A stretch of 64,000 nucleotides of DNA from Rubripirellula sp. (GCA_965216875.1 OZ244207.1:8000001-8064000), one strand, 5' to 3'. Shown: positions 43,925 through 64,000, counted from the stretch's first letter. The notes: generated from the letters alone by a model not told the origin. Translations and numbers: made by a program.

Positions 43925-45177
43925 TGATGCGAGCGATACTTTCGGCTCCCGGCTCCCGTGGCGACGTCAATCCGATGATTGCGATCGGACGTGCGCTCAA
44001 AACGATCGGCTTCGAAGTTGTGATTTCGTTGGCCGAGCCTTATGCCGAGATCGCCCAGCACGCTGGCCTCGACGTGGAACCGGTCGTTTCGTCCGACGCG
44101 TTTCATCAAATGGTCGGCGACCCGAATGTTTGGAAACCGATTCGGGGACCGCGAGCGTTGATGCGCGGCGTCGCCTCCGAATTCCTTGCCGCCCACTACG
44201 AAGTGATTCGCAGGCACCATCGGCCCGGCGAAACCGTTTTGGTCTCGCATCCACTCGACCTTGCTTCACGTGTGCACCGCGATTTCGATTCAAACACTCC
44301 GCTGGTGGATGTCCACTTGGCTCCGTCGATTCTGAGAACAAGCAAAGATCGGCCGCGTCTTTCTCCTTGGTGGTTCGAAACATGGATGCCCAACGCGGCG
44401 ATGTCGGCGACCTATTGGTTTGCCGATTGCTTCTTGATCGACCCACTCATCTGCAAGACGCTCAATCCATTTCGAAAGCAACTTGGTTTGCCGCCTGTGC
44501 GTCGTGTGCTTGATCGTTGGTGGCTCTCACCCGACAGGATCCTGGCGATGTATCCCGAGTGGTTCGCGCCGGCGACAGCGGAGTACTCGCCGCGTTTGAA
44601 ACATGTTGGTTTCCCGTTGGACGATGCCGACGATCGACCCTGCGAAGTCGTCAGCGATCGTCCCGTTGTCTTTACGGGCGGGACCGCACACCATCACAGT
44701 CTCGCATTTTTCCAGCGGGCAATCGATGCTTGTGTCGAGCTCGACCAGCCCGGTTTGTTGGTCTCGACCCATGAAGAGAACTTCCCGCTTTCGATTCCGT
44801 CGCTCGTCAAAACGGCGTCCTACGTTTCGTTTTCAAACTTGCTACCACAAGCCAGCATGCTCGTGCACCACGGCGGGATTGGAAGCACTTCCCAAGCCAT
44901 GTCAGCGGGTATTCCCCAGGTTGTCCGCCCAATGGCGTTTGACCAATTCGATAACGCAACGCGAGTCGAACACCTCGGCTGTGGTCGATGGCTCAAACGG
45001 GACAAAGATCTCGCCCAAACGATTCGACAGCTTCTCGATTCGAAAGACATCGCCAGTAGCTGCGGGCGCACCGCCAAGCAAATGAACGCCACCAACGAAA
45101 CCGCCGCCGCCAAAGCGGCAGCCGAGATCGCTGCAGTCTTGCAGAGGTCGGCAAAAAGATGGCGGGCAGAAGAATGA
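43924..45177 (+). CDS. GT1/GT28-type glycosyltransferase (RhlB-like)
   Basis: GSRGDVNP, HHGGIGST, P.AFDQFDNA. The last ~9 codons run into the AG-rich repeat. Confidence 0.9.
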   Translation: MMRAILSAPGSRGDVNPMIAIGRALKTIGFEVVISLAEPYAEIAQHAGLDVEPVVSSDAFHQMVGDPNVWKPIRGPRALMRGVASEFLAAHYEVIRRHHRPGETVLVSHPLDLASRVHRDFDSNTPLVDVHLAPSILRTSKDRPRLSPWWFETWMPNAAMSATYWFADCFLIDPLICKTLNPFRKQLGLPPVRRVLDRWWLSPDRILAMYPEWFAPATAEYSPRLKHVGFPLDDADDRPCEVVSDRPVVFTGGTAHHHSLAFFQRAIDACVELDQPGLLVSTHEENFPLSIPSLVKTASYVSFSNLLPQASMLVHHGGIGSTSQAMSAGIPQVVRPMAFDQFDNATRVEHLGCGRWLKRDKDLAQTIRQLLDSKDIASSCGRTAKQMNATNETAAAKAAAEIAAVLQRSAKRWRAEE

Positions 45178-45690
45178 AGAGGGAGAGGACAGAAAGATAG
45201 GAGACAGAAAAATGAATGCCGATCACGTGACTCCCGTCCCCTTTTCTCCATCGTCCCCGTGTTACTTGCTCTTAGGCCGGAGGCCGGCATATTTCTGCCG
45301 GTGGCGTGAGCCACCGGACTACGTCCCCTTTTCTTCCCCGCCAAGCAAATGAACGCTTCCAACGAAACCGCCGCCGCCAAAGCGGCAGCCGAGATCGCTG
45401 CAGTCTTGCAGAGTTAGGCAAAAAGATGGCGGGCAGAAGAATGAAGAGGAAGGGACAGAAAGATAGGAGACAGAAAAATGAATGCCGATCGCCTGATGAC
45501 CTATCTCTCTGTTTTTTTGCCCACCATTTTTCTGTCGCTCTTTCCCCGTACTCTCGGCCTTTTTTCTCCTTCCGCTGTCGAATTAGCGATATCTGAGATT
45601 GCCGCAGTCATACTGAGGTAGGCAAAAACATGGCGGGCAGATAAATGAAGAGGCAAAGGGACGCAACAAAGAGGCCTGACCCCTTTGATA
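45150..45690 (+). repeat. Left cluster of the AG-rich repeat (copies at 45150, 45417, 45621) with extra glycosyltransferase 3'-end copies and GTCCCC junction motifs
   Basis: GGCAAAAAGATGGCGGGCAGAARAATGAAGAGG...GACAGAAAGATAGGAGACAGAAAAATGAATGCCGATC; gene-end copy at ~45338-45413. Confidence 0.9.
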
Positions 45691-45701
45691 TTTCGATTGC
45701 G

Positions 45702-45980
45702 TTAAAGGTCACCTAACCCTGCAAGACTCTTTTCAACGGACTGGTTTGAAGGAAGCTCGATAACTTCTCCAATCTCTTTTCGGACCAAGAGCGGCCCATT
45801 CCCAGCCAACGCATGGCTGAAGTCTCGCGTTTCCCAATACGCCTTCGTATTGTAGAAAAAAACGAATCCAACATCGTGTTCCTCAACAACCTCTGGATTG
45901 AAAGCAAGTTCTAAACCGGTATTTCTTTCAATCGCCGCAAGGTACTGATCAGCGATCACTTGAGCTTCTTCTTGATTCAT
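45702..45980 (-). CDS. YrhB/Imm35-like immunity protein (orphan)
   Basis: EA..IA..YL, EH..G.VFFYNT..YWET.D...ALAGNGPLLV.K..GEV; GGGGAGG RBS; lower GC. Confidence 0.8.
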   Translation of the reverse strand: MNQEEAQVIADQYLAAIERNTGLELAFNPEVVEEHDVGFVFFYNTKAYWETRDFSHALAGNGPLLVRKEIGEVIELPSNQSVEKSLAGLGDL

Positions 45981-46050
45981 TCTAGGGCCTCCCCGGCGAA
46001 GCCTTTTCCCAATCATTCGCTTCGCTCAAGTCGTTTGTCGCGGCGATTCT

Positions 46051-46446
46051 TCATGGCCACGGAAGTTCCTCAATTGCCACCGGACATTCAACCGGTGGCT
46101 GAAAATTCCTCTCTTCAAGATGAGTGAGAAAACTGGGTGGCAAAGAAACATTGTGTTGGTCCACATAATGAGCCAAGTCATCTGGCCATAGCCAGCAGCC
46201 ATCAGATCGGTATGCGCTGCTACCACAAAGCTCTTCGCAGAGTAAACACTTTGAATTCGGTCCTGATGCAACAACGACAAGTGGGGCATTCAGAAGATAA
46301 GAAACGACCTTTTTCTGCTCGAAGCCTGACCAGTCCGCATCTGCAACAGCTTCCACTTGCGGAAGATCAAGTTCACCATCGTCTGACCGCCAGAATCCGT
46401 ACCACTGATGAGACCAGTTTGCCACAATAGAATCGACCGGTAGCAT
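46051..46446 (-). CDS. Putative immunity protein (DGxWxWPxxLxHYV family)
   Basis: CLLC...SDGCWLWPDDLAHYVDQHNV.LP..F..H; starts 12 bp after the toxin-tip stop. Confidence 0.65.
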   Translation of the reverse strand: MLPVDSIVANWSHQWYGFWRSDDGELDLPQVEAVADADWSGFEQKKVVSYLLNAPLVVVASGPNSKCLLCEELCGSSAYRSDGCWLWPDDLAHYVDQHNVSLPPSFLTHLEERNFQPPVECPVAIEELPWP

Positions 46447-46457
46447 ACGAAATTCCT

Positions 46458-46668
46458 TTACGGAGACGTTCGAGGAGTAAACGTTGTGAACTCACCTGGG
46501 TCACGGAAGTTCGGAACAGTGCGACCACCAACACGCCGACCACCGCTTATGAAGTGACTGCCGTTCTCGGTTGCAAAAATAAACTTGTTGGGCGCAGAAA
46601 CCGGCACGTTGAGTTTATTGGCAAGATTCTGTGCAAACCCAGTTGCACATTGACCTGTGTTGCAAGAT
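46458..46668 (-). pseudogene. Truncated orphan toxin C-terminal domain (SCxTG...FAQxLA type, caspase/C80-like Cys peptidase)
   Basis: SCNTG...FAQNLANKLNVPVSAP; the reading frame runs into the RAYT left-end repeats. Confidence 0.6.
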
Positions 46669-48180
46669 GGAACGACATGGAACGACGTGGGGACTGGAAC
46701 GACGTGGGGACAGAGCATTAAGTGTAGCGACGCGGGGACAGAGCAGGCAGGCGACGCGGAGACAGAGCACGATTCTATTTGATGTTATTGACGTGGCGAA
46801 TTTACGAGCGTTAAATGGAATCGGTCGAGATCGAAGAACGGTCCAATCGGCTTTCGCAAACTGGCTCTTCAAGACGCGGCTCCAGTTGCCGACCTTTGTC
46901 TTGGGGCTCTTCGATGGCTAGGTCTTCTCGCCGTGATGTGTTTGATCCTGTCGATGTAAACGTCGCTCACGTCATCAACCGCACCGTACGCAGGTGCTTT
47001 CTCTTCGGCCAAGATGAATTAACTGGCAAGAACTTTGACCACCGAAAAGTGTGGATCGAAGAGCTGCTCGAACACTTTGCGGCACATTTCGGCATCGATC
47101 TGCTCTGCTTTGCCGTCCTCTCGAATCACTATCACCTCATCCTGAGGACTCGGCCCGACGTGGTCGCAACTTGGGACGACACCGAAGTGGCTCGCCACTG
47201 GCTGATGATCTGTCCGCATCGAAAGGTCGACGGTAAACCGGCCCAGCCGAGCGAATCGGAATTGAACATGATTCGTAAATGCCCGGTCAAACTCGCCGAG
47301 ATTCGCAAACGACTGTCCGATATCTCGTGGTGGATGCGGCTGCTCAACCAACGTGTTGCCCAACGAGCCAATCGTGAGGAGGAAGAATCAGGCCGGTTCT
47401 GGCAGGATCGTTACAAAGCGATTCGCATTGTCGATGAAGAATCACTATTGGCCTGTGCCGCCTACGTTGACCTGAATCCGATCCGAGCCGCGACCGCCGA
47501 GACGCTCGAGGGAAGTGACCATACGTCGGTTCAGCGCCGGATCAACTCCGAACTCGTCAAACATTCGAAGTTGCCGACCGAGACTAGACGCACGCAGCTT
47601 GCTGAGTTCCTTGCGCCATTAACGCTTGACGAACGTTCGGGCGAAGTGGGGCCGATGCCGAGCGAAACCGATTTCCGGTGCAGCGACAAAGGGTTTTTAG
47701 CGATTGATTTCGAAGGCTACATCGAACTACTCGATTGGACTGCTCGCCAGGAAGTCAAAGGTAAACAAGGCAAGACGCCGACGTCGATGCCTCCGATCCT
47801 TCAGCGTCTCGGAATCGAAGCGAGTAGCTGGCTCGAATTAGTGCACTCCTTCGGCAAGACCTTCCGCATGGTCGCGGGACGTTGCGACCGGGTGGATTGC
47901 ATACGAGGTCATGAAACCGGTCGCCGGTTTCGATTGACACCTACAGCGAGGCGTCTCTTGCCTTCCCGGCTGACGGCGTAGCAGCCTTTCTCCCGTGCAA
48001 GCTAACCGCACCGATCAGCTAGCGGTACGCGCGGCCGTTAAGAAAACGGCCGAAAACTTGCAGCCCCAGACCTAAGTGACCCGATCGAAGCCAGAAGAAA
48101 GTTTCGCATCAACACGATGGTCTCGCGCCAACTCATCGCTAGTGGTCTGTCCCCATGTGCCGCTCCCCATGTGCCGTTCG
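46667..48180 (+). mobile_element. RAYT element bounded by inverted TGGGGACAGA motifs
   Basis: Left: GGAACGACGTGGGGAC twice and GCGACGCGGRGACAGAGCA copies. Right: TCTGTCCCCATGTGCCG followed by a CCCCATGTGCCG duplicate. Confidence 0.75.
46914..47981 (+). CDS. REP-associated tyrosine transposase (RAYT, HUH Y1)
   Basis: HVINR, FAVLSNHYHLIL (HUH), GRFWQDRYK, YVDLNPIRA (catalytic Tyr). Confidence 0.9.
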   Translation: MARSSRRDVFDPVDVNVAHVINRTVRRCFLFGQDELTGKNFDHRKVWIEELLEHFAAHFGIDLLCFAVLSNHYHLILRTRPDVVATWDDTEVARHWLMICPHRKVDGKPAQPSESELNMIRKCPVKLAEIRKRLSDISWWMRLLNQRVAQRANREEEESGRFWQDRYKAIRIVDEESLLACAAYVDLNPIRAATAETLEGSDHTSVQRRINSELVKHSKLPTETRRTQLAEFLAPLTLDERSGEVGPMPSETDFRCSDKGFLAIDFEGYIELLDWTARQEVKGKQGKTPTSMPPILQRLGIEASSWLELVHSFGKTFRMVAGRCDRVDCIRGHETGRRFRLTPTARRLLPSRLTA

Positions 48181-48532
48181 ACTGCCATCCAGGCACCACG
48201 GCCTGTCATTCGGCGATCGTCCATGCTCGCCGTGTCTGCGACGCTTTCCCATGCTCGGTTCCAGCGCGGCGGCATCGTGCCGAAGATTGCGACGGCCATC
48301 GTGGCCGTCGCTTGTTGCGCTCGAAGTTGCGCGGACTCGGCATCCAGCCGAAGAAGTTGCGGGGCATCGTGCCCCGCCGGGCTTAGCGCCGTCCAATTGC
48401 GCGCGGGTAAGCCAAGCGGCGCAGTGGTTCCGACGGCTTGCAAGTGCGTCCAGATGGAAAGTCGTTTGGCCGTCGGTTTCAGTTGGAACATCAACCGAGG
48501 TTTCGCCGCGACTGGTCAATCGTTCGCTTCGG

Positions 48533-48844
48533 TCACGTCGTTTGTCGCGGCACTTGTGCGTGAAACGCCTCTTCTGCTTCGCAGACAAGCTTGCCAAGTT
48601 CTGATTCGTAAGGCCACCCGTCCGCAACAGCCATGCCCATGTACCTGTTGGGAATTTCAGCATTCAAAGGATCAGCAAGTGCCGATCGCATTTGCAGAAG
48701 CGTTTGCAGAAAACGTTTAACCTGCGGGTTCATGTAATCAGGGAGGCTTGTGTCGCGATCCCCTGCAACGTGTCTCTCCGCACGTTCAATTGCATTCTCG
48801 ACTCGGTCAACGGCAGTTTCTCGGTTCATTGTCTTAGCCTTCAT
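48533..48844 (-). CDS. Cognate immunity protein of the Rhs toxin, Tsi6-like helical protein
   Basis: ATGA overlap with the Rhs stop; ~100 aa, all-helical pattern resembling Tsi6 by eye. Confidence 0.7.
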   Translation of the reverse strand: MKAKTMNRETAVDRVENAIERAERHVAGDRDTSLPDYMNPQVKRFLQTLLQMRSALADPLNAEIPNRYMGMAVADGWPYESELGKLVCEAEEAFHAQVPRQTT

Positions 48845-57800: not shown

Positions 57801-60789
57801 CATTTGCATAGCGACCGTCGGTATGAATGGGCTGATCAGCAAGCCGCTTTTGAATGATGGGGCCGTCATAGGGTATCTGCGAGATCGACGCACTCATGCC
57901 ACTGCTGTGAAGCTCTTCGGCGAGCCGGTCTTCAAAGTATTCGATCGGCAGTTGGTCGGACGTCGCGATGTAATCAAACTCATCAAATTCGCCGTTCGGA
58001 CCCGTGAGGGTCAATTCGATTCCGCTTTGGCGGTTCTTCAACTTGAACGACGGGTCGATATCAATCCACTGAAGGCCTTCGTCGGTAGGGACCTTTGCTC
58101 TGACCCACGCGTGAGTGATCTCGGTAATTCCATTTCCAAGGTTCGTAACACCACTACCCGAGAGTGCGTTGAAAAGAAGCAATCGTGCTGCGTGGTGCTC
58201 GCGGGTGCCCAGCCAATCTTGGAGTTCGTCATCGCCAAACTGGACGTCGCCGGTGACGATTTCCGCTTCGATGCCGATCTCGGCGAGCTTGTTAACAAGT
58301 AAAGCGGACTGGTCCCATGGATTCCCTCGTTGAGTCTCCTCTGTCGCCTGAGGTCCCTTCATAAAGCCTGGGTAGAGCTGCATCTCGACGTTGTTGTAGA
58401 CGTCCAAGAAGGCGTTGGTGGTCGCTTGGTAAGGCCCGTCACCATCCACCGGCTCTTGGCCAAGTGATTCGCTGTAGAAGCCGTCGAACCAATCGCCCCA
58501 GTCGGAGTCAACGGTGTCGAATGTCAGGTTCCCACTGGATGAATCGATATGAGAGGTGCTGACATGCCAAGCCGGAGCTGCCGCATTGTCTTGGCTGGGC
58601 GATGTATCGTTGGCAAGCGACGGATTGGTCGAGGCAACGAGGTCGTCGCGTCCGTCGCGATTGACGTCCACAACGAAAAGGTTGCCTCGAAATGCATTGG
58701 ATTGGTGTTCGTGCGACAGCCCTGCCGTAAGCAGTTGCGGTGTTCCGGTTGCTCCGAGTCCGAGTACCCGCCATCGACTATCGTCGACGGATCCATCATT
58801 GGTGATGCTGTCTTTGCGACCGATCAACTCTTCTCTGCCGTCACCATCAAAATCACCAACGAGTACTTCCTCGTCATGCCAGTCGGGACTGAGACTGGTC
58901 GAATAGGGGACGAAGCTCGTTGTGTCTGAAATCGCGATCGTCCATTGCCCCGTCGGATCGCGATACGCAAGATCATCGCGGCCGTCACCATTAAAGTCTG
59001 CGGCACGCCAGGTTTCGGCCGCCGCCGCTAGGCTTAGTACTCTAACACCATCGCTAGAAACAACGTCAAGTGTCGATGCTTTGTAGGACAGCGACTCTAT
59101 CCTGCCGTCTCCGTCAAAGTCGCCCTCCACGGCAAGTTCGTGTTCGTCAAGCTTGTCGGGCGCGATGCCAGACGCGAGCTTTGCGATGGCATTAGCGGAA
59201 AGTGGAACGCCAAAAATTGCGAAATCGTCAATGTACCCGTCGCCACCTGCACCCAAGTGGCCGCCCACAAACAGGGCTGTAAAGTCGGTTGGCAGCAGTG
59301 CCGCGGTGGTATCCGAAGCAACAAGGTGCCCATCGATCCAAATCGACTTGTCCGAACCATCTTGAACAAAGGCAAAGTGCCGCCATTGACCCGGCAAATC
59401 GACTGGGCTGTCGAGGCTCAGGCTCTGGCCCGGGTTTTGGAATCCTGCCGTATCGAAGTAGAGTCGGTTGTCACCGTAAGGTGCTCTGATCGCCAAGCCA
59501 ATGCCAGAGTCGCCAGAAGGAGCTTCGCCAAATACGGTTACAGCATCTCCAAGGGAGTCGATTTGCTGCCAGTACGAGATTGTGAGCCCGTTTGTCAAAC
59601 CAGTATTCAAGAAGCTAGCGTCATTGATCACGCTGTAGCCAGATCGGGTGTTCAGAGCATAATCACCGACCTTGCCAGATCTTCCCCCAGTGTTGTGAGA
59701 GTGTTCGGCTCCGACAAAGTCAGCGGTTGCGTTGTTGTATGTGCTTCGAGCACTGTCAGCCGAGCTGGCGTCGTTGTAGTCGAAATAGGCAATCAGCTCG
59801 AAATCTGTCTTGACTGACACTTTGGCAGGCGTGTGGAGCGTGCCGTCCGTTACCCATACATAGAACTCGTCGTCCCCTTCGAAACCGGAGTTGGGTGTGT
59901 AGGAGAACGACCCGTCCGTTGCGACAGTGCCTGGCTGAAGCGTGCCGTTCGCTGGCGGCGTATTACTGAGAACCGACAACGCCAACCCCAATGGATGCGA
60001 GTCGTTTGTGAGCACGCCGTCAGATGAAGCAATCGTGATCTGATTACCATGAGTGCCGTATGCGTCGTCTACGGACGTTGGCGCATCCTCAGGCGAGCTG
60101 GCGGAAGTGCCGTAATTTGGCTGGAACTGGGCATAGTCGAATAAGTTGACGACGCCATTGCCCTCATAGTCAAAGACGGGGTTAAAGTTGGGGTGCGAGG
60201 AAACGTAACCGTAGGTGGATCGGAACGCGGCGAAGTCAAACAGGCTAACAATCCCGTCACCATCGCTATCCCCGAACAGCCTGAATAGCTGATGTTGCGA
60301 TTTGGTGCCGTAGATGAAGTCATCACCTCCAACACCATCGCCATTGCCGTCCAACGCGATTCCGTCGGCAGTAACCAATGAAGAATTGATTCGAAGCTGA
60401 TAAATACCATCGGTCAGTGAAGCGGGAGATGTCCCGCGGTCTTGCACGCTCGGCCCAGGCTGGAATGTTAGCGATACGACGGTTTTTCCATCGACGACAC
60501 TCGAGGATGTAACATCGGTCGCGAACTCTGCCGTGTTCATATTAGCGACAACAAATGCGTCGCCGCCGCTGATTGACACCTCGGAATCGAATACGACAGA
60601 AATCTCGGTCAGATGCGACCGATGTGTGTCGCCTCCATTGATTTCGACCAGTTCAATTTGCGGTGCAATGTTTGCGGCAAGTAGCGAGCGTGACTCCAGT
60701 CGCTCCAAGAACGCTTTGCGTTTCTTTCGGTTTTTGCGTGCTGTAAGTGCATATTTTGACCGCAGAAGTCCGTTTCGTGGTTTGCGCAT
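48841..60789 (-). CDS. Giant Rhs/YD-repeat polymorphic toxin (3982 aa)
   Basis: LERLESRSLLAA N-terminus; dockerin-like, Ig, LamG, FG-GAP (GDFDGDGR), transglutaminase-like, DUF6531 (GDPVNVLNGN), many YD repeats, core ARWYD...GRFISEDP...NLYSY...DPSG, ~415-aa C-terminal extension. Confidence 0.95.
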   Translation of the reverse strand: MRKPRNGLLRSKYALTARKNRKKRKAFLERLESRSLLAANIAPQIELVEINGGDTHRSHLTEISVVFDSEVSISGGDAFVVANMNTAEFATDVTSSSVVDGKTVVSLTFQPGPSVQDRGTSPASLTDGIYQLRINSSLVTADGIALDGNGDGVGGDDFIYGTKSQHQLFRLFGDSDGDGIVSLFDFAAFRSTYGYVSSHPNFNPVFDYEGNGVVNLFDYAQFQPNYGTSASSPEDAPTSVDDAYGTHGNQITIASSDGVLTNDSHPLGLALSVLSNTPPANGTLQPGTVATDGSFSYTPNSGFEGDDEFYVWVTDGTLHTPAKVSVKTDFELIAYFDYNDASSADSARSTYNNATADFVGAEHSHNTGGRSGKVGDYALNTRSGYSVINDASFLNTGLTNGLTISYWQQIDSLGDAVTVFGEAPSGDSGIGLAIRAPYGDNRLYFDTAGFQNPGQSLSLDSPVDLPGQWRHFAFVQDGSDKSIWIDGHLVASDTTAALLPTDFTALFVGGHLGAGGDGYIDDFAIFGVPLSANAIAKLASGIAPDKLDEHELAVEGDFDGDGRIESLSYKASTLDVVSSDGVRVLSLAAAAETWRAADFNGDGRDDLAYRDPTGQWTIAISDTTSFVPYSTSLSPDWHDEEVLVGDFDGDGREELIGRKDSITNDGSVDDSRWRVLGLGATGTPQLLTAGLSHEHQSNAFRGNLFVVDVNRDGRDDLVASTNPSLANDTSPSQDNAAAPAWHVSTSHIDSSSGNLTFDTVDSDWGDWFDGFYSESLGQEPVDGDGPYQATTNAFLDVYNNVEMQLYPGFMKGPQATEETQRGNPWDQSALLVNKLAEIGIEAEIVTGDVQFGDDELQDWLGTREHHAARLLLFNALSGSGVTNLGNGITEITHAWVRAKVPTDEGLQWIDIDPSFKLKNRQSGIELTLTGPNGEFDEFDYIATSDQLPIEYFEDRLAEELHSSGMSASISQIPYDGPIIQKRLADQPIHTDGRYANATGITILGSFSDVVANPTLALNHTHRVRLVANTWSHDVIVPDAALDAMTVFVDANNQLTFTVDGNTVGSSVQLPAGTNTLQIHRARPGVSVPIGNPLQFQINDVDFGRHYHVSIDADQYSNDALIRRREAIISAGDTPTIADIEYVTQYVSSKYWYDQRRFARHAQALMHHVPYDRDVQAGLVLADDILLSGDFSHLQSPIVPRNLGVDLPGGSFGSIDIRLDESSTDLGNEELFQLTGYNASALESGVIEETINTESVSTIRGLRDAYIGDPAITGADLNSVWVIDSIDEPGGRTVYVRGELGERASEGPNHYPFQANRTNLVATSSADLKSLLPNQDPAILDEVWIKLTTNVVDTATAVIPEAHSYAGDDTSYWEGGVYVLDKSLSASVSVAQYAIQQLGGTTMNGGFSGNAVAQTLDTIKAAATHFVNYVGDPVNVLNGNMFRDDVDVVMPNKGVALNFARHYDSQSEFDVGLGVGWTHSFGDRLMQDPTKPDEMIWFTSAGVRHTFTKVGNQWQTPVELFGVLTETSGNFVYRSDTGLEHHFNGNVTAVAADTELDYVARLSSVVDRDGHGVQLDYHWFRQFELEAVHDIATTSRALRFDYDSTTTIHEVEKVVDGIVEATWTYQYDPAGTRLTSATNPEFDKVEYEYHAAGPSTGLMSRIIEADDTYHDYEYYANKRAFRVTEGVVEGQSFVPKSSHSFNYNLFTNTTEFTDENGNVTTYVHEESGRLLRHVHDDRSRVITHWGVEDGSGGIVDGTEYLMRDRSDEVGATEVFEYYNTQDFKNRRLYRATDPLGTVTEFNYVQATDIGSEHIVSQSSIHRDVGTANERSTSMQYDGAGRLTSLTDGEDNVTTFTYHSSGVNVGMLASETSARGHFDSTDTEENEAVVWRVLRDETQPTEEQRSRFQVTGDSLTIRLESVAGEGAVVADAIRIERIDQDGLGQLIRISDDNFSGPTGTFAMYTTGGDTGPVSGTGLNQYHGDAIKLTSLLVGQQNHATWSFSNLVPGFYRIATTWTTVAGADSTAAYRIYDGPDTSGSYVESVVDQTVDPSAGDHYNAFTKTFTYDAAGNVTELRQGVSTVSDSGLLIQTSQYHHTGAPELLTDGTGRSVASSYDDVGRLTKSVNLGDPLTTDDDLVSEFEYDRRGRIIQSIDPLGRGTTIEYDYRGNIVSRVDASGSKWVTTYDAKGNPVSTTDPIGRVTELVYDNRDRVIQTNLADGSTNHTSYDGLGRVVSTVDELQRKSEVTYNPRGQVTAALAAKDSSVETQVANKYDHFGDLIESIDARGNVTQYFHDDLGRIVKTMVLAAADAANADPSTSARTTANQRPIYVETTGFDSAGNAVVRIVYDTLLADDRIATSDLLADDLHQRVETGLTAVNGTLGKNVVQSIHFTFDSLGRLSQTIHADGTQRLVEYDAAGRVRFEENERGARSENVFDAFGRLNQSILPDPDGSLSQLSPIVTHEFDAAGNRVAMTDANGHVQQTVYDALDRPVQITDAVGNRSEWVYDTAGQLVASVNALGHAIASQYDSRGRVVRQSGAHPDGTSATAPPVSLSSYDDAGNLVSSVDPLGYETTFVYDELNRLVEERAQRSALVNGVVTTLAPSDDAVTRFGYDGNGNLTTTEVALGDFPGYITTTDYDELNRLVQQTLPDPDDVAGSSSNPLASLVIDYQIDGYGNVRETSESAPGVPTRVDRFEYDSRNRLTAETLNSTALSLDNDFVRNEWQYDAVGNRVASFSAVNSSDPNVNVVNRYEYDLLNRMTVQRMDAPNQSDLGRHRTEFFYDAAGNLIDETFTITSYTGTGEASVTTSYAYDDANRPIGVTSDSGGIDATATTGYDRVGNVVKRVDATGIATTFEYDALNRQVKVVHPDPTPTDGLVSDLVEHFRYDASGNLVSHTNGEGNQTDYLHDSFGNIVSQTTVMPTASDLETVFAFDERGNMTALTDPNGNQTTFVYDNLNRVTKEIQGTTETGTNTRTYQFDNRGNLDSMTDRNGRVTDYDYDGLDRKTSETFLNGSTAEQTLAWEYDKLGRLTRSYFLDDAYSQQQVYTDTFEYDALGRLVQQLNSDDASGASRGNPQLLQTYQHDDLTNYSGTGLNAYQYKQTFEPINQSIPDDNITYVDAVIEFDSLGRQILINEAAAQGQGEKSVAFGYDDAGRTTSITRHADTDNDPQTGTNGFDFYFGSQFAYDPSGRLEQIAHRRDSESASPFATYDYLYDNASRITQVDSTSSWPTLDVSRTEVAGFDDAGRLASWDYDLVDNHVSATDLSASVDRVFELDSAGNRDRVLDNGVEVANQVVGDFNRITTDGGSGPAYTYDNEGNLTGRDNGPGDYVEYVWDHRNRLVEVRQKPSAVGSATDRVRLTYSNGNLLVRKIVETQNGGGDWDISDVEHYVYQGDQLVAVLQGNWTDQTGADDTTTTDGSYKRRVLSGPATDTPIYEQEYVDPLIHGGTQSGPYWTATDHNGSVRDVLIGADELLVQHLEYDAFGDITGVFDDTESSVALDALAVDAAFAGRSWDSDVGLYNNRARWYDGGQGRFISEDPIGHAGGVNLYSYAAGDPVNFRDPSGLVLSGHPLVALGSSIGTAVNSTASSVVGSLAGYYANSQPTPSGWESVSNFAQGVGSAIGNISVGNLGAVSSQLSSAVGGFTSAASSIVQTQYAANRLHYGERYGLQHLRADQAMGFLDNKYTPQQIRALDMMFTYEAAGQRSDYLYATGGSDALSISERMALRELQGDLWNQFRAEGLDNLPINLGPLHGADAFGFESETGGIITRLRSLRSIPVGLEDAGITSIQPEFYAAGLGAGLFRAAATAGLRGVAGELAAESINAVAGAPVSLLGSGRSLLRAPSPTATVRHATPEAYAGVRQASQQLRDAGVPRHIRKQVLESFDRKAMQVRVAGDAEYGIRYFDNVNAWPKGRYLFEEFPATRNSLALPTDWNQMTHFRQFQIRPGTTIFEGPAARQGFYPGGQIQKYIADLDNLIAP

Positions 60790-61169
60790 CCTGAGCTCAA
60801 ATGATATGTGCCATGGCCGATGCGACGGCCGGTTCAGTAACTGCCTTTACCAGCACCGACATGCAGCCGGCGAGAGTTATTCTCACGATACAGGTCGTGA
60901 GCGGTCTTTGCGATAGGGCAATCGCAAAAATAAATGGCATCGACAACCCTTAATATTTAAAGGTGAAGCGACGAACTCTCTGCTCAATCCTTCCATGATG
61001 CGGAGCCGCGACAGCCGTATTCTTCCAAAAGGATTTGGTGTCGAACACCGTTATCGGATGATGAAGAACGAGATAGCAAAATGATGGACGGAAAAAACAA
61101 GAGCTGATCGCAGTCCATGTTTCTCTCCCTCTTTCCGCAGCCATTTGACGGTGTGGGCTAGGGCCCTCT

Positions 61170-61293
61170 TCGGTTGTTGCTGACAGGTTGGTTTTGGACG
61201 ACCTGGGCGCAATGCGTGTGCGGAGACTTGATCGAGATTTCCAATCGGTCTGACTTGCCAATGCATCGGCGACGTGGCGGCTGATCGTCTCGA
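61170..61293 (-). pseudogene. Diverged, frameshifted copy of the 3' end of the CobW-like GTPase gene
   Basis: Aligns to 63216-63343; encodes ETI.R.V.DALASQT.W then DQVSAHALRPGRP in another frame. Confidence 0.85.
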
Positions 61294-61344
61294 ACCGACC
61301 GGGAACTGTGGTGCAAGAAAAGACCTCCGTCCCCTGTTTTCCTC

Positions 61345-61813
61345 TGCTCGTGCACCACGGCGGGATTGGAAGCACTTCGCAAGCCATGTCAGCGGGGATT
61401 CCCCAAGTCGTTCGCCCGATGGCGTTTGACCAATTCGATAACGCAACGCGAGTCGAACACCTCGGCTGTGGTCGATGGCTCAAACGGGACAAAGATCTCA
61501 CCCAAACGATTCGACAGCTTCTCGATTCGGATGACGTCGCCAGCAACTGCGGGCGCACCGCCAAGCAAATGAACGCCACCAACGAAACCGCCGCCGCCAA
61601 AGCGGCAGCCGAGATCGCTGCAGTCTTGCTGAGGTAGGCAAAAAGATGGCGGGCAGAAAAATGAAGAGGAAGAGGGACAGAAAGATAGGAGACAGAAAAA
61701 TGAATGCCGATCGCGTGACCCCCGTCCCCTTTTCTCCATCGTCCCCAAGTGTTACTTGCTCTTAGGCCGGAGGCCGGCATATTTCTGCCGGTGGCGTGAG
61801 CCACCGGACTACG
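61345..61813 (+). repeat. ~470-bp direct duplicate of 44858-45323 (glycosyltransferase 3' end plus downstream repeats)
   Basis: Encodes LVHHGGIGST...EIAAVLLR*; near-identical to the end of the intact gene. Confidence 0.95.
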
Positions 61814-61838
61814 AGATCGCTGCAGTCTTGCAGCGTTA

Positions 61839-61985
61839 GGCAAAAAGATGGCGGGCAGGAAAAGGAAGAGGAAGAGGGACAGAAAGATAGGAGACAGAAA
61901 AATGAATGCCGATCGCTTGAAGACCAATCTCTTCGTTTTTTTGCCCATCATTTTTCTGTCGCTCTTTCCCCCGTACTCTCGGCCT
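61839..61985 (+). repeat. AG-rich repeat copy 5 with inverted arm
   Basis: Matches 45417-45560. Confidence 0.88.
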
Positions 61986-62118
61986 GCGCAGCACCGGTTT
62001 TCACCACTCGCTCCGTCCACAATTCCCCGGCTGTTTCGAATGGTATTTGCGTCGTTGGCAAACTCAGCGATAATCGGGCCGAAGTTCTAGGTCTTCCACC
62101 GTCTTTCCATTCGAACGC

Positions 62119-62352
62119 ATGAAGTTCACTACACATGAGCAGGCGCAAGCCGATGAGCAGCAGTACTGGCGCTCGAGAACGCCGGAAGAACGCATCCAAC
62201 AAGTCTTTCGGTTGCTGAGACTGAATTATGGCGATGCAGTTGACCGAAGACTGGAAAGAGTTCTTACGATTACTCGAATCCCACAAAGTGGACTACATGA
62301 TCGTCGGGGGGATTGCGGTGGCGTTTCACGGTTACCCGAGAGCGACCGGTGA
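62119..62352 (+). CDS. Small protein of the YWxSRTPEER type preceding the nucleotidyltransferase
   Basis: QYWRSRTPEERI...RRLERV; overlaps the NTase gene in another frame. Confidence 0.6.
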   Translation: MKFTTHEQAQADEQQYWRSRTPEERIQQVFRLLRLNYGDAVDRRLERVLTITRIPQSGLHDRRGDCGGVSRLPESDR

Positions 62353-62662
62353 CCTAGACATTTTCTACGCCTCTTCGTCTTCGGAACAGTTGGCAGCAGC
62401 GGTGAAAGCGTTTGGGTTTCCCGTCGATCCAAATCAGTTGGCGAAAGAACGAGTGTTAGCGCAACTTGGAAAAGAGCCGTTCAAGATCGAGTTGATGAAT
62501 TTCATTTCCGGAGTTCGTTTCGAAGAGGCAACGACGGTTCGAGGCCAAATCGACGGCGTAGCCGCAACCTTCATCTCCAAAGAATCGCTTTTGAAAAACA
62601 AAGCAAGCACCAACCACAGCGAACGCCCTCGAGACGCAGACGATCTAAACCGTTTGCAATAG
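62228..62662 (+). CDS. Nucleotidyltransferase (DUF6036/AbiEii-like)
   Basis: YMIVGGIAVAFHGYPRATGDLDIF, LLKNK.S...RP.D.DD. Confidence 0.85.
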   Translation: MAMQLTEDWKEFLRLLESHKVDYMIVGGIAVAFHGYPRATGDLDIFYASSSSEQLAAAVKAFGFPVDPNQLAKERVLAQLGKEPFKIELMNFISGVRFEEATTVRGQIDGVAATFISKESLLKNKASTNHSERPRDADDLNRLQ

Positions 62663-62695
62663 CAACTTCTTGAACCGGAAAAAACTAAACGGGCA

Positions 62696-63210
62696 TGCTG
62701 AGGTAGGCAAAAAGATGGCGGCAGAAAAATGAAGGGAAGAGGGACAGAAAGATAGGAGACAGAAAGATGAATGCCGATCGCTTGATCACCTATCTCTTTG
62801 TTTCTCGCCCACCGTTTTTCTGTCCCTCATTCCCCGTGCTCTCGGCCTGCCGAATAAGCGACAGCTGAGATTGCCGCAGTCATGGTGAGGTAGGCAAAAA
62901 GATGGCGGGCAGAAAAATGAAGAGGAAGAGGGACAGAAAGATAAGAGAGCGAAAAATGAATGCCGATCGCCTGAAGACCTATCTCTTGTTTTTTTGCCCA
63001 CCATTTTCTGTCCCGCTTTCCTCGTGCTCTCGGCCTGCCGAATAAGCGACAGCTGAGATCGCTGCGGTCATGGTGAGGTCGGCAAAAAGATGGCGGGCAG
63101 AAAATGAACAGGAAGAGGGACAGAAAGATAGGAGACAGAAAAATGAATGCCGATCGCGTAAAGACCTATCTCTATTTTTCTGCCCACCATTTTTCTGTCC
63201 CTCTTTCCCC
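62696..63210 (+). repeat. Three tandem ~187-bp units (AG-rich repeat copies at 62706, 62893, 63081), each preceded by a glycosyltransferase-end remnant
   Basis: Period 187-188 bp; GCGACAGCTGAGATYGCYGCRGTCATGGTGAGGT precedes copies 7 and 8. Confidence 0.9.
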
Positions 63211-63215
63211 AGACC

Positions 63216-64000
63216 TCAGTTGTTCGTGACTCGGTGGGTTGGCGTTGGACGGCCTGGGCGTAATGCGTGTGCGGAGACTTGATCGACGTTCCAATTGGTC
63301 TGACTTGCCAGTGCATCGATCACGTTGCGGCAGATCGTCTCGAGTTGATCGGGATCCATCGCGACTCTCGCGTTGATGGTGACCTGCATCTTTCCTGCGA
63401 CGCTGCGGCCTGCTTTGAGTCCGATGTCGATGACGCCATCGTTGGAAACGACGTTCGCGACCGCCTGTGTGTCGCCTGCCAACACGGACGTCTTTAGGTG
63501 AGCGATTTGACCGCCTGAGTCAATGACTTTAGTCGCTGCACTTGAAACGATGGTCGAGGCAACGTCGTCCAAATCGAGTTGGCTCGAGCCCGTCAGGATT
63601 GCGGAGAGATTGACCCAGCCAAGTTCGGCTTCCCCATCGGCGTAGGTGTCGTAGTCGATCGCAAGCAGGCGCCGCCCCGCTTCCATTGGCGAATCAATGT
63701 GCGTCATCACCGCATCGACACCTTCGCCTGACACAGGACTGACCGCGACCACCGGAACACCTTCGGCCACCGACGAGAGCTGACTCGAAAGCTCCTGGAT
63801 CTGCTCGGCGTCAAGCTGGTCCTTGCGGCCGATCATCACATAATCGGCCTCTTCAAGTTGTTTGCGGAAGATGTATTCCGCTTGAGGCGAAAAGCCGCTC
63901 CGTTTTCCGCTCGCTTCTCCCGCCAAGATCTTCTTGCCGTGCGAAGGTTTAAGGATCACTCCGAACGGTGCGAGTTCAAATCGATCGCCGAGCAATTGCT
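63216..64000 (-). CDS. CobW/G3E-family GTPase, C-terminal part (5' end outside the window)
   Basis: YIFRKQLEEAD, VSPVSGEGVD, DYDTYADGEAELGWVN, IAHLK. Confidence 0.7.
   Translation of the reverse strand, partial: QLLGDRFELAPFGVILKPSHGKKILAGEASGKRSGFSPQAEYIFRKQLEEADYVMIGRKDQLDAEQIQELSSQLSSVAEGVPVVAVSPVSGEGVDAVMTHIDSPMEAGRRLLAIDYDTYADGEAELGWVNLSAILTGSSQLDLDDVASTIVSSAATKVIDSGGQIAHLKTSVLAGDTQAVANVVSNDGVIDIGLKAGRSVAGKMQVTINARVAMDPDQLETICRNVIDALASQTNWNVDQVSAHALRPGRPTPTHRVTNN

What the first reader, a model, noticed from the sequence alone, without database searches (positions are those of the whole stretch)
44858..63343. Integrase-free cargo locus built from duplicated 3' ends of both flanking genes, with a RAYT-type GGGGAC motif at the junctions
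Seen: the order is glycosyltransferase -> [toxin cargo] <- GTPase 3' copy (61170-61293) | GACCTCCGTCCCCTGTTTT | glycosyltransferase 3' copy (61345) -> [NTase cargo] <- GTPase. Several new segments start right after a G(T/A)CCCCT(T/G)T motif: at ~45229, ~45317 (followed by a gene-end copy), ~45672 (followed by toxin cargo), ~61322 (followed by a gene-end copy) and ~61717. The same GGGGAC core bounds the RAYT inside the island. No tyrosine or serine integrase is present. Established: RAYTs are HUH nucleases that cut at REP sequences. Inference: segments spanning gene end - cargo - gene end are cut and joined at GGGGAC motifs, possibly as circles, and re-enter by single crossover, stacking cargo in tandem. 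This would be a RAYT/REP-driven gene-capture platform for toxin modules.
Basis: partly seen in the sequence, partly recalled or inferred. Interest (0 to 1): 0.9.

Follow-up and report, generated by a model that had tools for sequence, protein, structure and literature searches.

The report
Rhs toxin island between duplicated gene-ends
A 16.5-kb bacterial toxin island sits beside a small second cargo segment, each bounded by its own copy of the ends of the same two neighbouring genes, which points to DNA from a related strain being added next to the resident version rather than replacing it; a transposase-linked repeat sits exactly at the joint.

Summary
GT 3' end 44858-45157 recurs at 61345-61644 (95.3%), colinear to 45560/61987. 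The CobW-like GTPase 3' end 63237-63354 recurs at 61186-61304 (84.9%, one frameshift). A unique 40-bp filler (61305-61344) joins them. Isolate contigs bridge the joint, and no integrase lies in the window.

The two GT ends differ mostly at synonymous sites (pN/pS 0.22), so they look like alleles from different lineages. A related strain in an independent metagenome run carries the c2-type GT end, the NTase segment and the GTPase.

Best reading (0.5): an allelic segment GT3'-repeats-Rhs island-GTPase3' was added beside the resident GT3'-NTase-GTPase. The route was homology-anchored illegitimate recombination or single-crossover entry of a circle.

GACCCCCGTCCCCTTTTCT occurs letter for letter in 45 stretches of public genomes, nearly all planctomycete. 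In five loci inverted copies, exact or partial, bracket a Y1 (IS200/RAYT-like) transposase gene, the known TIRYT kind. Four of about six copies in this genome lie in this locus, and two abut GT fragments at join points.

The unbroken genes have no such motif at the breakpoints, and no intact cognate transposase was found in this genome. Cut-and-join by a RAYT is therefore unproven (0.22). Partly supported; new variant of a known kind.

The parts
42104..43924 (+). sigma-54 activator (FHA-GAF-AAA-HTH), conserved left neighbour of GT
   Evidence: Pfam. The pair with GT is kept in G001 and in 12 of the 12 best metagenome loci.
43924..45177 (+). intact GT1-family glycosyltransferase. Its last ~15 codons run into the local repeat.
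   Evidence: Pfam EryCIII-like_C 7.5e-20. The tail is homologous to the left end of the repeat unit.
44858..45560 (+). copy 1 of the duplicated left block: GT codons 312-417, repeat arm, S element, hairpin REP, second GT tail, full repeat
45229..45247 (+). S element copy (GACTCCCGTCCCCTTTTCT, 1 mismatch to the 19-mer)
45259..45323 (+). hairpin REP. The minus strand reads GTAG + stem CCGGTGGC/GCCACCGG. It belongs to a dispersed family that flanks the canonical RAYT at genome position 5390647.
   Evidence: 32 genome hits; Rfam Acido-Lenti-1 31.1 bits, below gathering score 37; Y1_Tnp 87.9 bits at 5390647
45316..45339 (+). partial S element (CGTCCCCTTTTCTTCCCC) abutting an 87-nt GT tail copy that starts at codon 384
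45668..45688 (+). 21-mer AAAGAGGCCTGACCCCTTTGA at the left edge of the toxin cargo. It is identical in L167, a Planctomycetaceae MAG, where it lies 22 nt before an S copy.
45702..46016 (-). Imm35 immunity gene (orphan module)
   Evidence: Pfam 1.6e-12
46051..46718 (-). 131-aa and 86-aa ORFs with no family match. They are possibly an orphan immunity gene and a toxin tail; the 86-aa ORF's 5' end runs into the GGGGACAGAGCA cluster.
46678..46790 (+). cluster of GGGGAC(A/T)G... repeats upstream of the RAYT-like gene
   Evidence: (D16)
46815..47981 (+). 388-aa RAYT/TIRYT-like Y1 HUH gene (NHYHLIL block and ...YVDLNPIRA block)
   Evidence: Paralogues at 8120930, 5871639 and 6117953.
48533..48844 (-). 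103-aa ORF directly after the Rhs gene; likely immunity gene (inferred from position only)
   Evidence: no family match
48841..60789 (-). 3982-aa Rhs polymorphic toxin (RHS repeats, Rhs core with one DPxGL site at residue 3562, ~415-aa C-terminal domain without a family)
61186..61304 (-). displaced GTPase 3' fragment (84.9% to 63237-63354, frameshifted)
61305..61344 (+). join-point filler. 61322-61340 is a diverged S element (3 mismatches), and the pyrimidine run after it abuts GT codon 312.
   Evidence: Bridged by isolate contigs.
61345..61987 (+). copy 2 of the left block (GT codons 312 to end with an early TAG, repeat arm, exact S at 61717, hairpin REP 61749-61813, repeat)
62228..62662 (+). 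DUF2204 nucleotidyltransferase (second cargo)
   Evidence: Pfam 5.1e-09
62690..63208 (+). about 2.75 tandem ~188-bp imperfect hairpin repeat units built of CAGAAA(A/G)ATG boxes
   Evidence: Fold -27.1 kcal/mol, z -1.86. Strain X1 has two units fewer (joint 62798->63175).
63216..64000 (-). intact CobW-like G3E GTPase. The open frame runs to 64460; the 372-aa protein used here starts at 64334.

Best explanation
The locus is the product of additive, integrase-free recombination between two allelic versions of one intergenic hotspot.

One version, GT - repeats - NTase - repeats - GTPase, is the resident one. The other, GT - repeats - Rhs toxin/immunity island - repeats - GTPase, came from a diverged lineage.

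The incoming segment ran from inside GT (codon 312 or further upstream) to inside the GTPase (about 40 codons before its stop). It was anchored by homology in GT and its flanking repeats.

Its other end had only 119 nt of 85% homology, with a longest identical run of 25 nt. That end was joined illegitimately, through a 40-nt filler, to GT codon 312 of the resident copy. The same product arises if the segment first closed into a circle at that joint and entered by one crossover in the ~700-bp GT3'/repeat homology.

The result is one working GT that ends in the imported copy 1, the Rhs island, a dead GTPase end, the joint, the displaced resident GT end (copy 2), the NTase and the working GTPase.

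Shown: the topology, the allelic nature of the two GT ends, and a related strain with the copy-2 type end. Inferred: the direction of the event, the route by which the DNA entered, and the kind of joining.

The repeat-rich spacer (hairpin REP, S elements, 188-bp units) is where the local rearrangements have their edges. An S element sits at the joint; its role is left open here.
For: 1. Two-sided duplication with a unique joint. Isolate contigs cross the joint with 0 differences in X2, X3 and X4.

2. GT copies 1 and 2 over codons 313-406: 7 synonymous and 5 non-synonymous differences, pN/pS 0.22, binomial P = 0.011. In the first 51 of these codons (the conserved block) there are 6 synonymous and 0 non-synonymous differences, P = 1.8e-4. 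This is the pattern of two alleles that each evolved as a working gene, not of a dead copy decaying in place.

3. Run X1 comes from an algae metagenome in another study. It holds contigs 96-99.5% alike on GT 44203-44915, on copy 2 and the NTase segment (61410-62914), and on the GTPase (63175-64000), at similar depths of 17-38. Its GT 3' contig differs from copy 2 at 9 of 249 places. 7 of the 9 are private to X1, so it is copy-2-like at 8 or more of the 10 places that tell copy 1 from copy 2. Its divergence from our GT 5' part (24/713) matches its divergence from copy 2 (9/249). That fits GT 5' plus copy 2 being the original gene.

4. The right-hand homology is short and poor (101 of 119 columns identical, longest run 25), while the left block has runs of 83. 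This fits one homologous side and one illegitimate side.

5. The site is a hotspot. G002 has the sigma-54 activator convergent on the GTPase with 171 bp between them and no GT. G001 has the activator, GT, then the next gene, with no GTPase. No orthologue of this Rhs protein was found in the 25 relatives searched; only its ~200-aa N-terminal module matches.

6. No recombinase lies in the window.

7. The same logic is in print for toxin/immunity arrays. Homology-facilitated illegitimate recombination is proposed there to add a new effector-immunity module and push the old one downstream (PMC5361080; passages read).
Against: - The direction is not proven. The mirror model, in which the NTase segment came in anchored in the GTPase, gives the same map. 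X1 is 98.7-99.5% like our NTase/GTPase part but only 96.6% like GT, which could also mean the right part is the recent import.
- No donor with copy 1 plus the Rhs island was found.
- Allelic differences between the GT copies could also arise if an in-place duplication was later overwritten by ordinary allelic replacement.
- Illegitimate joints are expected at random places. Yet both this joint and an older nested one (the 148-bp GT-tail duplication at 45079-45496) carry the same rare S element with its end abutting a GT fragment. This model does not predict that.
- Competence, conjugation or any other route of DNA entry was not examined in this organism.
- X1 data are contigs, not reads, from a single run.
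Confidence: 0.5

Rival explanations
1. A Y1 HUH (RAYT/TIRYT-type) enzyme made the joints. It cut single-stranded DNA at S-type (GGGGAC-core) ends and joined an S end to DNA inside GT. This produced gene-end-flanked segments or circles that then entered by homologous recombination. It is the first reader's model, with S rather than the bare GGGGAC core as the site.
For: - S (GACCCCCGTCCCCTTTTCT) is a conserved element. It has 45 exact stretches in public genomes, nearly all titled Planctomycetota of several families, against about 4 expected by chance from my own estimate.
- 21 of 49 instances are inverted pairs.
- In 5 loci inverted copies bracket a 225-242-aa gene. Both copies are exact in L159 and L135; one side is only an 8-nt core in L142, L155 and L162. 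All 5 genes match Y1_Tnp at 47-55 bits.
- 9 of 45 loci have a RAYT-like tblastn hit within 1.5 kb.
- In this 8.26-Mb genome only 6 places match S with 3 or fewer mismatches, one of which looks like chance. Three of them, plus a 4-mismatch copy, lie in this locus.
- Two independent GT fragments (from codon 312 and from codon 384) directly abut the T-rich outer end of an S copy. Both nested tandem structures therefore have S at the join.
- The 68-bp indel between the two blocks starts at the CTAC/GTAG tag of the hairpin REP. That tag is where E. coli RAYT is reported to cut (PMC3733652, discussion passage).
- A second Rhs locus (genome 5619-5625 kb) has an exact S and RAYT remnants just downstream.
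Against: - There is no motif within 60 nt either side of the breakpoints in the unbroken GT and GTPase genes, so the segment was not excised between two pre-existing sites.
- The left edge of the filler (GTPase3'|ACTGTGG...) lies about 17 nt inside, not at an S end.
- The S at the joint is diverged (3 mismatches).
- No intact cognate MPRQKR-type Y1 gene was found in this genome, only fragments at 6182408 and 5624874.
- The island's own RAYT-like gene is tied to a different repeat, GGGGACAGAGCA (48 copies).
- Y1 transposases of the IS200/IS605 kind are not known to duplicate or capture flanking DNA (recalled, not checked).
- S copies are common solo intergenic elements in the phylum (28 of 49 are solo), so one at a joint inside a repeat-rich spacer may be a bystander.
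Confidence: 0.22
2. There was an in-place tandem duplication of GT3' - spacer - GTPase3' in one genome. The join point formed in the repeat-rich spacer. Later the Rhs island was inserted or swapped in, and ordinary allelic replacement overwrote one GT end.
For: - The map is formally a tandem duplication.
- A smaller nested tandem duplication, the GT tail plus repeat arm, is present in both blocks and is therefore older.
- The copy number of the 188-bp units differs between strains.
- Tandem duplications with REP sequences at the join point are a known class. I recall the 1990 paper of that title; I saw its title only in the reference lists of 7 papers in a search listing and did not read it.
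Against: - It needs at least three events where one suffices.
- The divergence is uneven: 95% on the left and 85% on the right.
- The GT copies differ with a synonymous bias.
- The two units carry quite different cargo.
- REP-by-REP recombination would need S copies inside both genes, and they are not there.
Confidence: 0.13
3. This is a classical genomic island that integrated site-specifically into the GT 3' end. It carries a replacement gene end, and its integrase has been lost or acts from elsewhere.
For: - Direct repeats of a gene 3' end at both island edges, with a restored gene, are the usual footprint of such islands (established knowledge).
- The first 34 nt of the two copies are identical, a length that would suit an attachment core.
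Against: - There is no tyrosine or serine recombinase in the window, and the nearest in the genome are megabases away.
- The homology is 700 bp long, not a short core.
- The island's far end carries a fragment of the other flanking gene, which site-specific integration does not explain.
Confidence: 0.05
4. The duplications are an assembly artefact.
For: The region is repeat-rich, and short-read contigs break at every repeat.
Against: - Contigs from three isolate runs cross the unique joint with no differences.
- Copy-1-specific (X4, 44932-45121) and copy-2-specific (X2, 61345-61608) contigs both exist.
- The genome is a single 8.26-Mb contig.
- These runs may be the data the genome was built from, so the support is not independent.
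Confidence: 0.02

Closest known systems
Additive displacement of toxin/immunity modules by homology-facilitated illegitimate recombination (V. cholerae T6SS arrays, PMC5361080, passages read; Rhs and CDI orphan arrays are cited there but I did not read those papers)
   Same: A new toxin module arrives with a homologous anchor on one side. It is added rather than exchanged, the old sequence is pushed downstream and kept as a fragment, and no integrase is involved.
   Different: Here the anchor and the displaced fragments are the ends of two unrelated housekeeping-type genes that flank the cargo, not the conserved part of the toxin gene itself. Both flanks are duplicated, so the whole unit has the form of a tandem repeat that could loop out.
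TIRYT / TIRtron and RAYT / REP systems (Di Nocera et al. 2013, PMC3733652; abstract and passages read)
   Same: Y1 HUH genes are bracketed by inverted repeats that also occur as dispersed solo or paired copies. A GGGG(A/T)(C/G)A(C/G) motif is reported in such repeats, and R. baltica is named as rich in these genes. The island's gene with its GGGGACAG... repeats, and the S-bracketed genes in other planctomycetes, fit this description.
   Different: Those elements are described as self-contained repeats. No role in joining host gene fragments or carrying cargo is reported in the passages I read. I did not see that paper's figures or supplements, so I cannot say whether the 19-mer S itself is listed there.
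Tandem chromosomal duplications with REP sequences at the join point (1990 Salmonella work; recalled, with the title seen only in reference lists)
   Same: A repeat of the REP class lies at the novel joint of a tandem duplication.
   Different: There the joint arises by exchange between two REP copies that already flank the duplicated segment. Here the breakpoints lie inside two genes that have no such repeat.
Integrase-borne genomic islands in the 3' ends of genes
   Same: The island is bounded by direct repeats of a gene end, and the target gene is restored by an island-borne copy.
   Different: There is no integrase, the homology is long, and a fragment of the opposite flanking gene sits at the far end.
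Integron cassette arrays
   Same: Cargo is stacked at one site. The same genome has an integron-like array of immunity-type genes with a tyrosine recombinase at genome 1.788-1.816 Mb.
   Different: This locus has no recombinase and no attC-like sites, and only two units.

Membership tests
RAYT / TIRYT (Y1 HUH transposase with flanking repeats): island gene 46815-47981 | HUH motif and the RAYT-type C-terminal block (Y..NP.RA) | tested here: met
   NHYHLIL aligns with NHWHLVL, and ...AAYVDLNPIRA aligns with ...RYVERNPLRA, of an S-bracketed Y1_Tnp protein. Which tyrosine is catalytic is recalled, not tested.
RAYT / TIRYT: island gene 46815-47981 | score over the curated family cut-off | tested here: inconclusive
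   Pfam Y1_Tnp 25.3 bits against cut-off 23, but only over profile positions 27-63. NCBIfam REP_Tyr_transpos 42.3 bits against cut-off 80. A ~77-aa insert separates the two blocks.
RAYT / TIRYT: island gene 46815-47981 | gene flanked by inverted copies of a repeat that is also dispersed in the genome | tested here: met
   GGGGACAGAGCA occurs 48 times in the genome against 0.4 expected. For the paralogue at 5871639 there are 4 upstream copies on + and 5 downstream on -. For the island gene there are 2 exact copies plus variants upstream, and one GGGGACAGACC-type inverted copy downstream.
TIRYT TIR family: S element (19-mer) | inverted copies bracket a Y1 transposase gene | tested here: met
   L159 and L135 have exact copies on both sides. 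L142, L155 and L162 have one exact side and one 8-nt core. 5 of 5 genes match Y1_Tnp at 47-55 bits. This was seen in other genomes, not in this one.
TIRYT TIR family: S element (19-mer) | published TIR motif GGGGWSAS | tested here: inconclusive
   S reads GGGGACGG, matching 7 of 8. GGGGACAG of the island repeat matches 8 of 8. The motif is taken from passages of PMC3733652.
RAYT-driven cut-and-join at this locus | recognition motif present at the breakpoints in the unbroken donor/target genes | tested here: not met
   No GGGGAC, GTCCCC, GACCCC or GGGGTC within 60 nt either side of 44858 or 63354.
RAYT-driven cut-and-join at this locus | enzyme cuts and joins the motif | not testable with these tools
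   Needs protein and single-stranded DNA substrates.
Rhs polymorphic toxin | RHS repeats, Rhs-associated core ending in DPxGL, variable C-terminal domain, downstream small gene | tested here: met
   RHS_repeat 2.8e-107 with 11 stretches. Rhs_assc_core 78.6 bits against cut-off 32.5. One DPxGL site at residue 3562. The C-terminal 419 aa have no family. A 103-aa ORF follows; its immunity role is inferred.
Product of homology-facilitated illegitimate recombination / Campbell-type addition | one long homologous side, one non-homologous joint, foreign allele on the added side | tested here: met
   The left block is ~700 bp at about 94-95% with identical runs up to 83 nt. The right block is 119 nt at 85%. 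The filler is 40 nt. The substitution pattern is allelic, and X1 is copy-2-like.
Product of homology-facilitated illegitimate recombination / Campbell-type addition | a donor configuration exists in nature | tested here: not met
   Copy 1 plus the Rhs island was not found elsewhere. An exact 41-mer of the GT 3' end gave 0 hits in genome contigs. The best metagenome GT relatives are 59% identical or less. There is no Rhs orthologue in the 25 relatives searched.
Integrase-mediated genomic island | tyrosine or serine recombinase in or beside the island | tested here: not met

The most novel reading that the evidence does not exclude
S-type ends of planctomycete Y1 (TIRYT) transposons act as join points that weld pieces of host genes to neighbouring cargo. 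This makes units of the form gene end - cargo - gene end. Such a unit can loop out through its own duplicated flanks and re-enter any strain that has the two flanking genes by plain homologous recombination. It would be an integrase-free, homology-addressed cassette system that stacks toxin and other accessory modules at convergent-gene spacers. The two nested joins here would be two independent products of it: S | GT codon 384 and S | GT codon 312.
Probability: 0.2. Interest if true: 0.85.

Novelty: new variant of a known kind. Interest (0 to 1): 0.55.

Why it matters
Polymorphic toxin loci are known to grow by adding modules and keeping displaced pieces. Here the displaced pieces are the ends of both flanking genes. 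The 16.5-kb Rhs island is therefore an exact tandem unit with ~700-bp direct repeats, and it can be lost or gained by ordinary recombination without any dedicated recombinase. That gives a simple, testable route for toxin islands to move between strains of one species.

The second point is the 19-nt S element. It is kept letter for letter across planctomycete families, it brackets Y1 transposase genes, and it sits at both nested join points in this locus. If that is more than coincidence, it links the little-understood RAYT/TIRYT enzymes to host genome rearrangement.

Tried and rejected
- Breakpoints in relatives. The genus relatives G001 and G002 are only 60-74% identical in these proteins and lack either the GTPase or GT at the site. 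An exact 41-mer of the GT end gave 0 matches in genome contigs. The metagenome scan with GT gave 73 loci, the best 59% identical; the top 12 keep the activator-GT pair, but none shows the GTPase downstream within the DNA held. Fine breakpoints could not be compared.
- Cover of X1 over the island. No X1 contig at 88% likeness or better was laid on most of 45522-61385; 19 of the 24 bins there have zero depth, and the rest are small repeat hits. By the tool's own caution a hole proves nothing, and no contig joins across it. I therefore do not count this as absence of the Rhs island in that strain.
- X1 'joints' 45168->63179 and 45322->48139, and X3 joints 47955->48020 and 47988->61717. These trace to paralogous repeat loci (genome 8070.8 kb; 5624.6 kb), not to this locus.
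- Circles or deletion forms. They cannot be told from the tandem joint in contig data, and no raw reads were on offer.
- Rfam. There is nothing at gathering score. The hairpin REP is a near-miss to Acido-Lenti-1. The 188-bp units match only plant microRNA hairpin models by shape. S palindromes match no family.
- The 188-bp unit as a strong hairpin. The fold is only modest, z -1.86.
- The 188-bp unit as a genome-wide MITE. It is local: 8 copies here and only short box matches elsewhere.
- Genome-wide search for other two-sided gene-end duplications. Of 114 short-range direct repeat pairs none that I inspected repeats this pattern. The two longest and best (1.79 and 1.80-1.81 Mb) are cassette duplicates in an integron-like array. 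Most of the 114 were not inspected.
- RAYT-toxin link. The genome has three Rhs loci. Ours and one other have RAYT-like sequence nearby. The two intact paralogues of the island gene whose neighbours were scanned (8120930, 5871639) sit among sulfatase, HEAT, VWA, kinase/pyrophosphorylase and dockerin genes. The numbers are too small to call.
- Toxin domain naming. The C-terminal 419 aa of the Rhs protein and the small ORFs have no Pfam or NCBIfam family.
- Earlier notes of this scan. Two look-ups gave nothing on this locus.

Full report
WHAT IS THERE

The window lies at 8,000,001-8,064,000 of a single-contig 8.26-Mb genome with GC 0.563. From left to right the gene order is as follows.
- A sigma-54 activator (42104-43924).
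- A GT1-family glycosyltransferase, 'GT' (43924-45177).
- A repeat-rich spacer.
- On the minus strand, an Imm35 immunity gene and two small ORFs.
- A cluster of GGGGAC-core repeats.
- A 388-aa RAYT-like gene on the plus strand (46815-47981).
- A 103-aa ORF and a 3982-aa Rhs protein on the minus strand (48841-60789).
- A fragment of a GTPase 3' end.
- A 40-nt filler.
- A second GT 3' end, followed by more repeats.
- A DUF2204 nucleotidyltransferase (62228-62662).
- About 2.75 tandem ~188-bp units.
- The intact CobW-like GTPase on the minus strand, with its stop at 63216.

These assignments rest.

GT 44858-45157 recurs at 61345-61644 at 95.3%. The two blocks stay colinear to 45560/61987, apart from one 68-bp indel. 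GTPase 63237-63354 recurs at 61186-61304 at 84.9% with a 1-nt indel. The 40 nt between them (61305-61344) are unique in the genome.

Two of the five are the same site in the two blocks.

None of the genome's 8 tyrosine-recombinase and 4 resolvase matches lies in the window.

Contigs of three runs of the isolate cross the joint without a difference, and copy-specific contigs exist for both GT ends. These runs may be the genome's own data.

THE TWO GT ENDS ARE ALLELES, NOT A GENE AND ITS DECAYING COPY

Over codons 313-406 the copies differ at 7 synonymous and 5 non-synonymous sites (pN/pS 0.22, P = 0.011). In the first 51 of these codons, the conserved block, the count is 6 to 0 (P = 1.8e-4).

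Run X1, an algae metagenome from another study, holds contigs of a related strain on four parts:
- the GT 5' part, with 24 differences in 713 nt;
- the copy-2 end, with 9 differences in 249 nt;
- the NTase segment, with 4 differences in about 856 nt;
- the GTPase, with 11 differences in 826 nt.

Seven of the nine differences on the copy-2 end are private to X1. That strain therefore has the copy-2 letter at 8 or more of the 10 places where copy 1 and copy 2 differ. So copy 2, now a displaced fragment, is the kind of GT end found in a relative together with the NTase and the GTPase. Copy 1, which now completes the working gene, is the odd one out and is linked to the Rhs island.

THE SITE IS A HOTSPOT

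In the genus relative G002 the activator and the GTPase are convergent neighbours 171 bp apart, with no GT. In G001 the activator and GT are followed directly by the gene that lies beyond the GTPase in our genome.

The activator-GT pair is kept in the 12 best metagenome loci, and synteny ends after GT in all of them. The Rhs protein has no orthologue in the 25 relatives searched.

MOST LIKELY HISTORY (confidence 0.5)

A segment from a diverged lineage, GT3'(copy 1)-repeats-Rhs island-repeats-GTPase3', was added beside the resident GT3'(copy 2)-repeats-NTase-repeats-GTPase.

The left side has about 700 bp of 94-95% homology with identical runs of up to 83 nt. The right side has only 119 nt at 85% with a longest run of 25 nt. 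One homologous exchange plus one illegitimate joint gives exactly this map. So does closure of the segment into a circle followed by a single crossover.

This is the logic proposed for additive growth of T6SS effector-immunity arrays and Rhs orphan strings (PMC5361080; passages read). The variation here is that the duplicated anchors are the ends of both flanking genes.

The direction of the event is inferred, not shown. So is the alternative that the NTase unit is the newcomer, and so is the route by which the DNA entered.

Three repeat systems meet in this spacer.

(a) The 65-nt element at 45259-45323 and 61749-61813 (identical copies) is a classical tagged hairpin REP. Its minus strand reads GTAG followed by the stem CCGGTGGC/GCCACCGG. 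It has 32 relatives in the genome, including four that flank the canonical RAYT at 5390647 (Y1_Tnp, 87.9 bits).

(b) GGGGACAGAGCA occurs 48 times in the genome where 0.4 are expected. It clusters on both sides of the 388-aa RAYT-like gene's paralogues at 5871639 and 8120930, and upstream of the island gene itself. This fits the published TIRYT/TIRtron class, whose inverted repeats share GGGGWSAS (PMC3733652; passages read).

(c) The junction motif is a third element, S = GACCCCCGTCCCCTTTTCT. A scan of one genome per prokaryote species found it letter for letter in 45 stretches. Nearly all are titled Planctomycetota, from the Pirellulaceae, Isosphaeraceae and Planctomycetaceae and including Blastopirellula, Rhodopirellula and Rubripirellula.
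- 21 of 49 instances are inverted pairs of the form AAAAGGGGACGGGGGTC-loop-S.
- In five loci inverted copies bracket a 225-242-aa gene, and each of the five genes matches Y1_Tnp over the cut-off.
- 9 of the 45 loci hold a RAYT-like match within 1.5 kb.

In our genome only five convincing S copies exist at 3 or fewer mismatches. Three of them, plus a 4-mismatch partial copy, are in this locus. A 21-mer at the left edge of the toxin cargo (45668-45688) is identical to one that lies 22 nt before an S copy in a MAG of another family.

WHERE S SITS

The 40-nt filler is largely a diverged S preceded by its usual A-rich stretch (AAGAAAA). The pyrimidine run at its outer end abuts GT codon 312.

An older, nested structure is shared by both blocks. 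The GT tail plus the left repeat arm (148 nt) is duplicated, with S, the hairpin REP and a second partial S between the copies. In block 1 that second S abuts GT codon 384.

So two tandem structures of very different size each have an S-type sequence at the join, with a GT fragment against its outer end. The 68-bp indel between the blocks begins at the CTAC/GTAG tag of the hairpin REP.

Four things speak against the idea.
- The unbroken GT and GTPase genes have no GGGGAC-type motif within 60 nt of the breakpoints.
- The left edge of the filler is not at an S end.
- The cognate MPRQKR-type Y1 gene is present only as fragments in this genome.
- Solo S copies are common in intergenic DNA of the phylum (28 of 49).

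OTHER RIVALS

In-place duplication followed by cargo swap and allelic overwrite needs more events, and it does not explain 95% identity on one side against 85% on the other (0.13). An integrase-borne island fails on the missing recombinase and on the GTPase fragment at its far end (0.05). An assembly artefact is unlikely (0.02).

LIMITS

- X1 is contig data from one run. Holes in its cover cannot be read as absence.
- No donor configuration was found.
- The figures and supplements of PMC3733652 were not seen, so S itself may already be listed there.
- The 1990 REP join-point paper is recalled. Only its title was seen, in reference lists.

VERDICT

The locus is a new variant of a known kind: additive growth of a polymorphic-toxin locus, here through duplicated ends of both flanking genes, in a spacer filled with RAYT/TIRYT-type repeats. 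The S element at both join points is the unexplained part that is worth a bench test.

Noticed in passing
genome G000:C1:1788000-1816000 (L040, L041): About 45 small ORFs lie on one strand, among them SUKH-3, SMI1_KNR4, DUF4240 and DUF7674 (immunity-type) proteins. The array ends at a divergent tyrosine recombinase (Phage_int_SAM_4 + Phage_integrase). It looks like a chromosomal integron-like array of immunity cassettes. Internal direct repeats are 484 bp at 99.4% and 553 bp at 97%.
   Followed up: partly
L125-L169 (public planctomycete genomes); window 45229, 61322, 61717: The 19-mer GACCCCCGTCCCCTTTTCT is conserved letter for letter across planctomycete families. It is often an inverted pair with a 10-12-nt loop, flanked by an A-run and a T-run (terminator-like in shape). 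It is sometimes followed by tandem GTCCCCTTTTCT-type units, for example in L133, L134 and L159.
   Followed up: partly
genome G000:C1:5390245-5391376: A canonical RAYT (Y1_Tnp 87.9 bits) is flanked on both sides by hairpin REPs of the family to which window 45259-45323 belongs.
   Followed up: partly
genome G000:C1:5619000-5625200 (L044): A second Rhs locus. It holds an exact S copy (5624457, minus), a rearranged remnant of the island-type RAYT gene and its downstream region (5624658-5625111), and a C-terminal fragment of the MPRQKR-type Y1 gene just after the toxin.
   Followed up: partly
genome 300372-301145, 791790-792138, 2537800-2538090, 5843167-5843868, 8070634-8071005; window 45205-45525, 61654-61949, 62722-63188: Eight clusters of short boxes, CAGAAA(A/G)ATG with GGGAC or GGC in front, are arranged in tandem and inverted arrays in spacers. 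One cluster is mixed with GGGGACAGAGCA. Their function is unknown.
   Followed up: no
window 45134-45177: The last ~15 codons and the stop of the working GT gene lie inside the local repeat unit. Copy 2 stops 9 codons earlier at a TAG. The G001 orthologue aligns only to residue 406 of 417.
   Followed up: partly
window 62119-62352: A 77-aa ORF overlaps the start of the NTase gene in another frame and has no family match. It may be a small partner gene or a broken N-terminus.
   Followed up: no
window 48076-48720: A GC-rich stretch (0.62) has long open frames on both strands (214 aa on +, 174 aa on -) and no family match. Its first part is the conserved region downstream of the RAYT-like gene.
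   Followed up: no
L036 15390-15560 (G002): The orthologous spacer in the genus relative G002 is filled with its own, unrelated ~55-nt hairpin repeats (GTCTGTCGGCCGGTT...GACTTTGGAAAAGTC). The hotspot is therefore repeat-rich in both species, but with different repeats.
   Followed up: no
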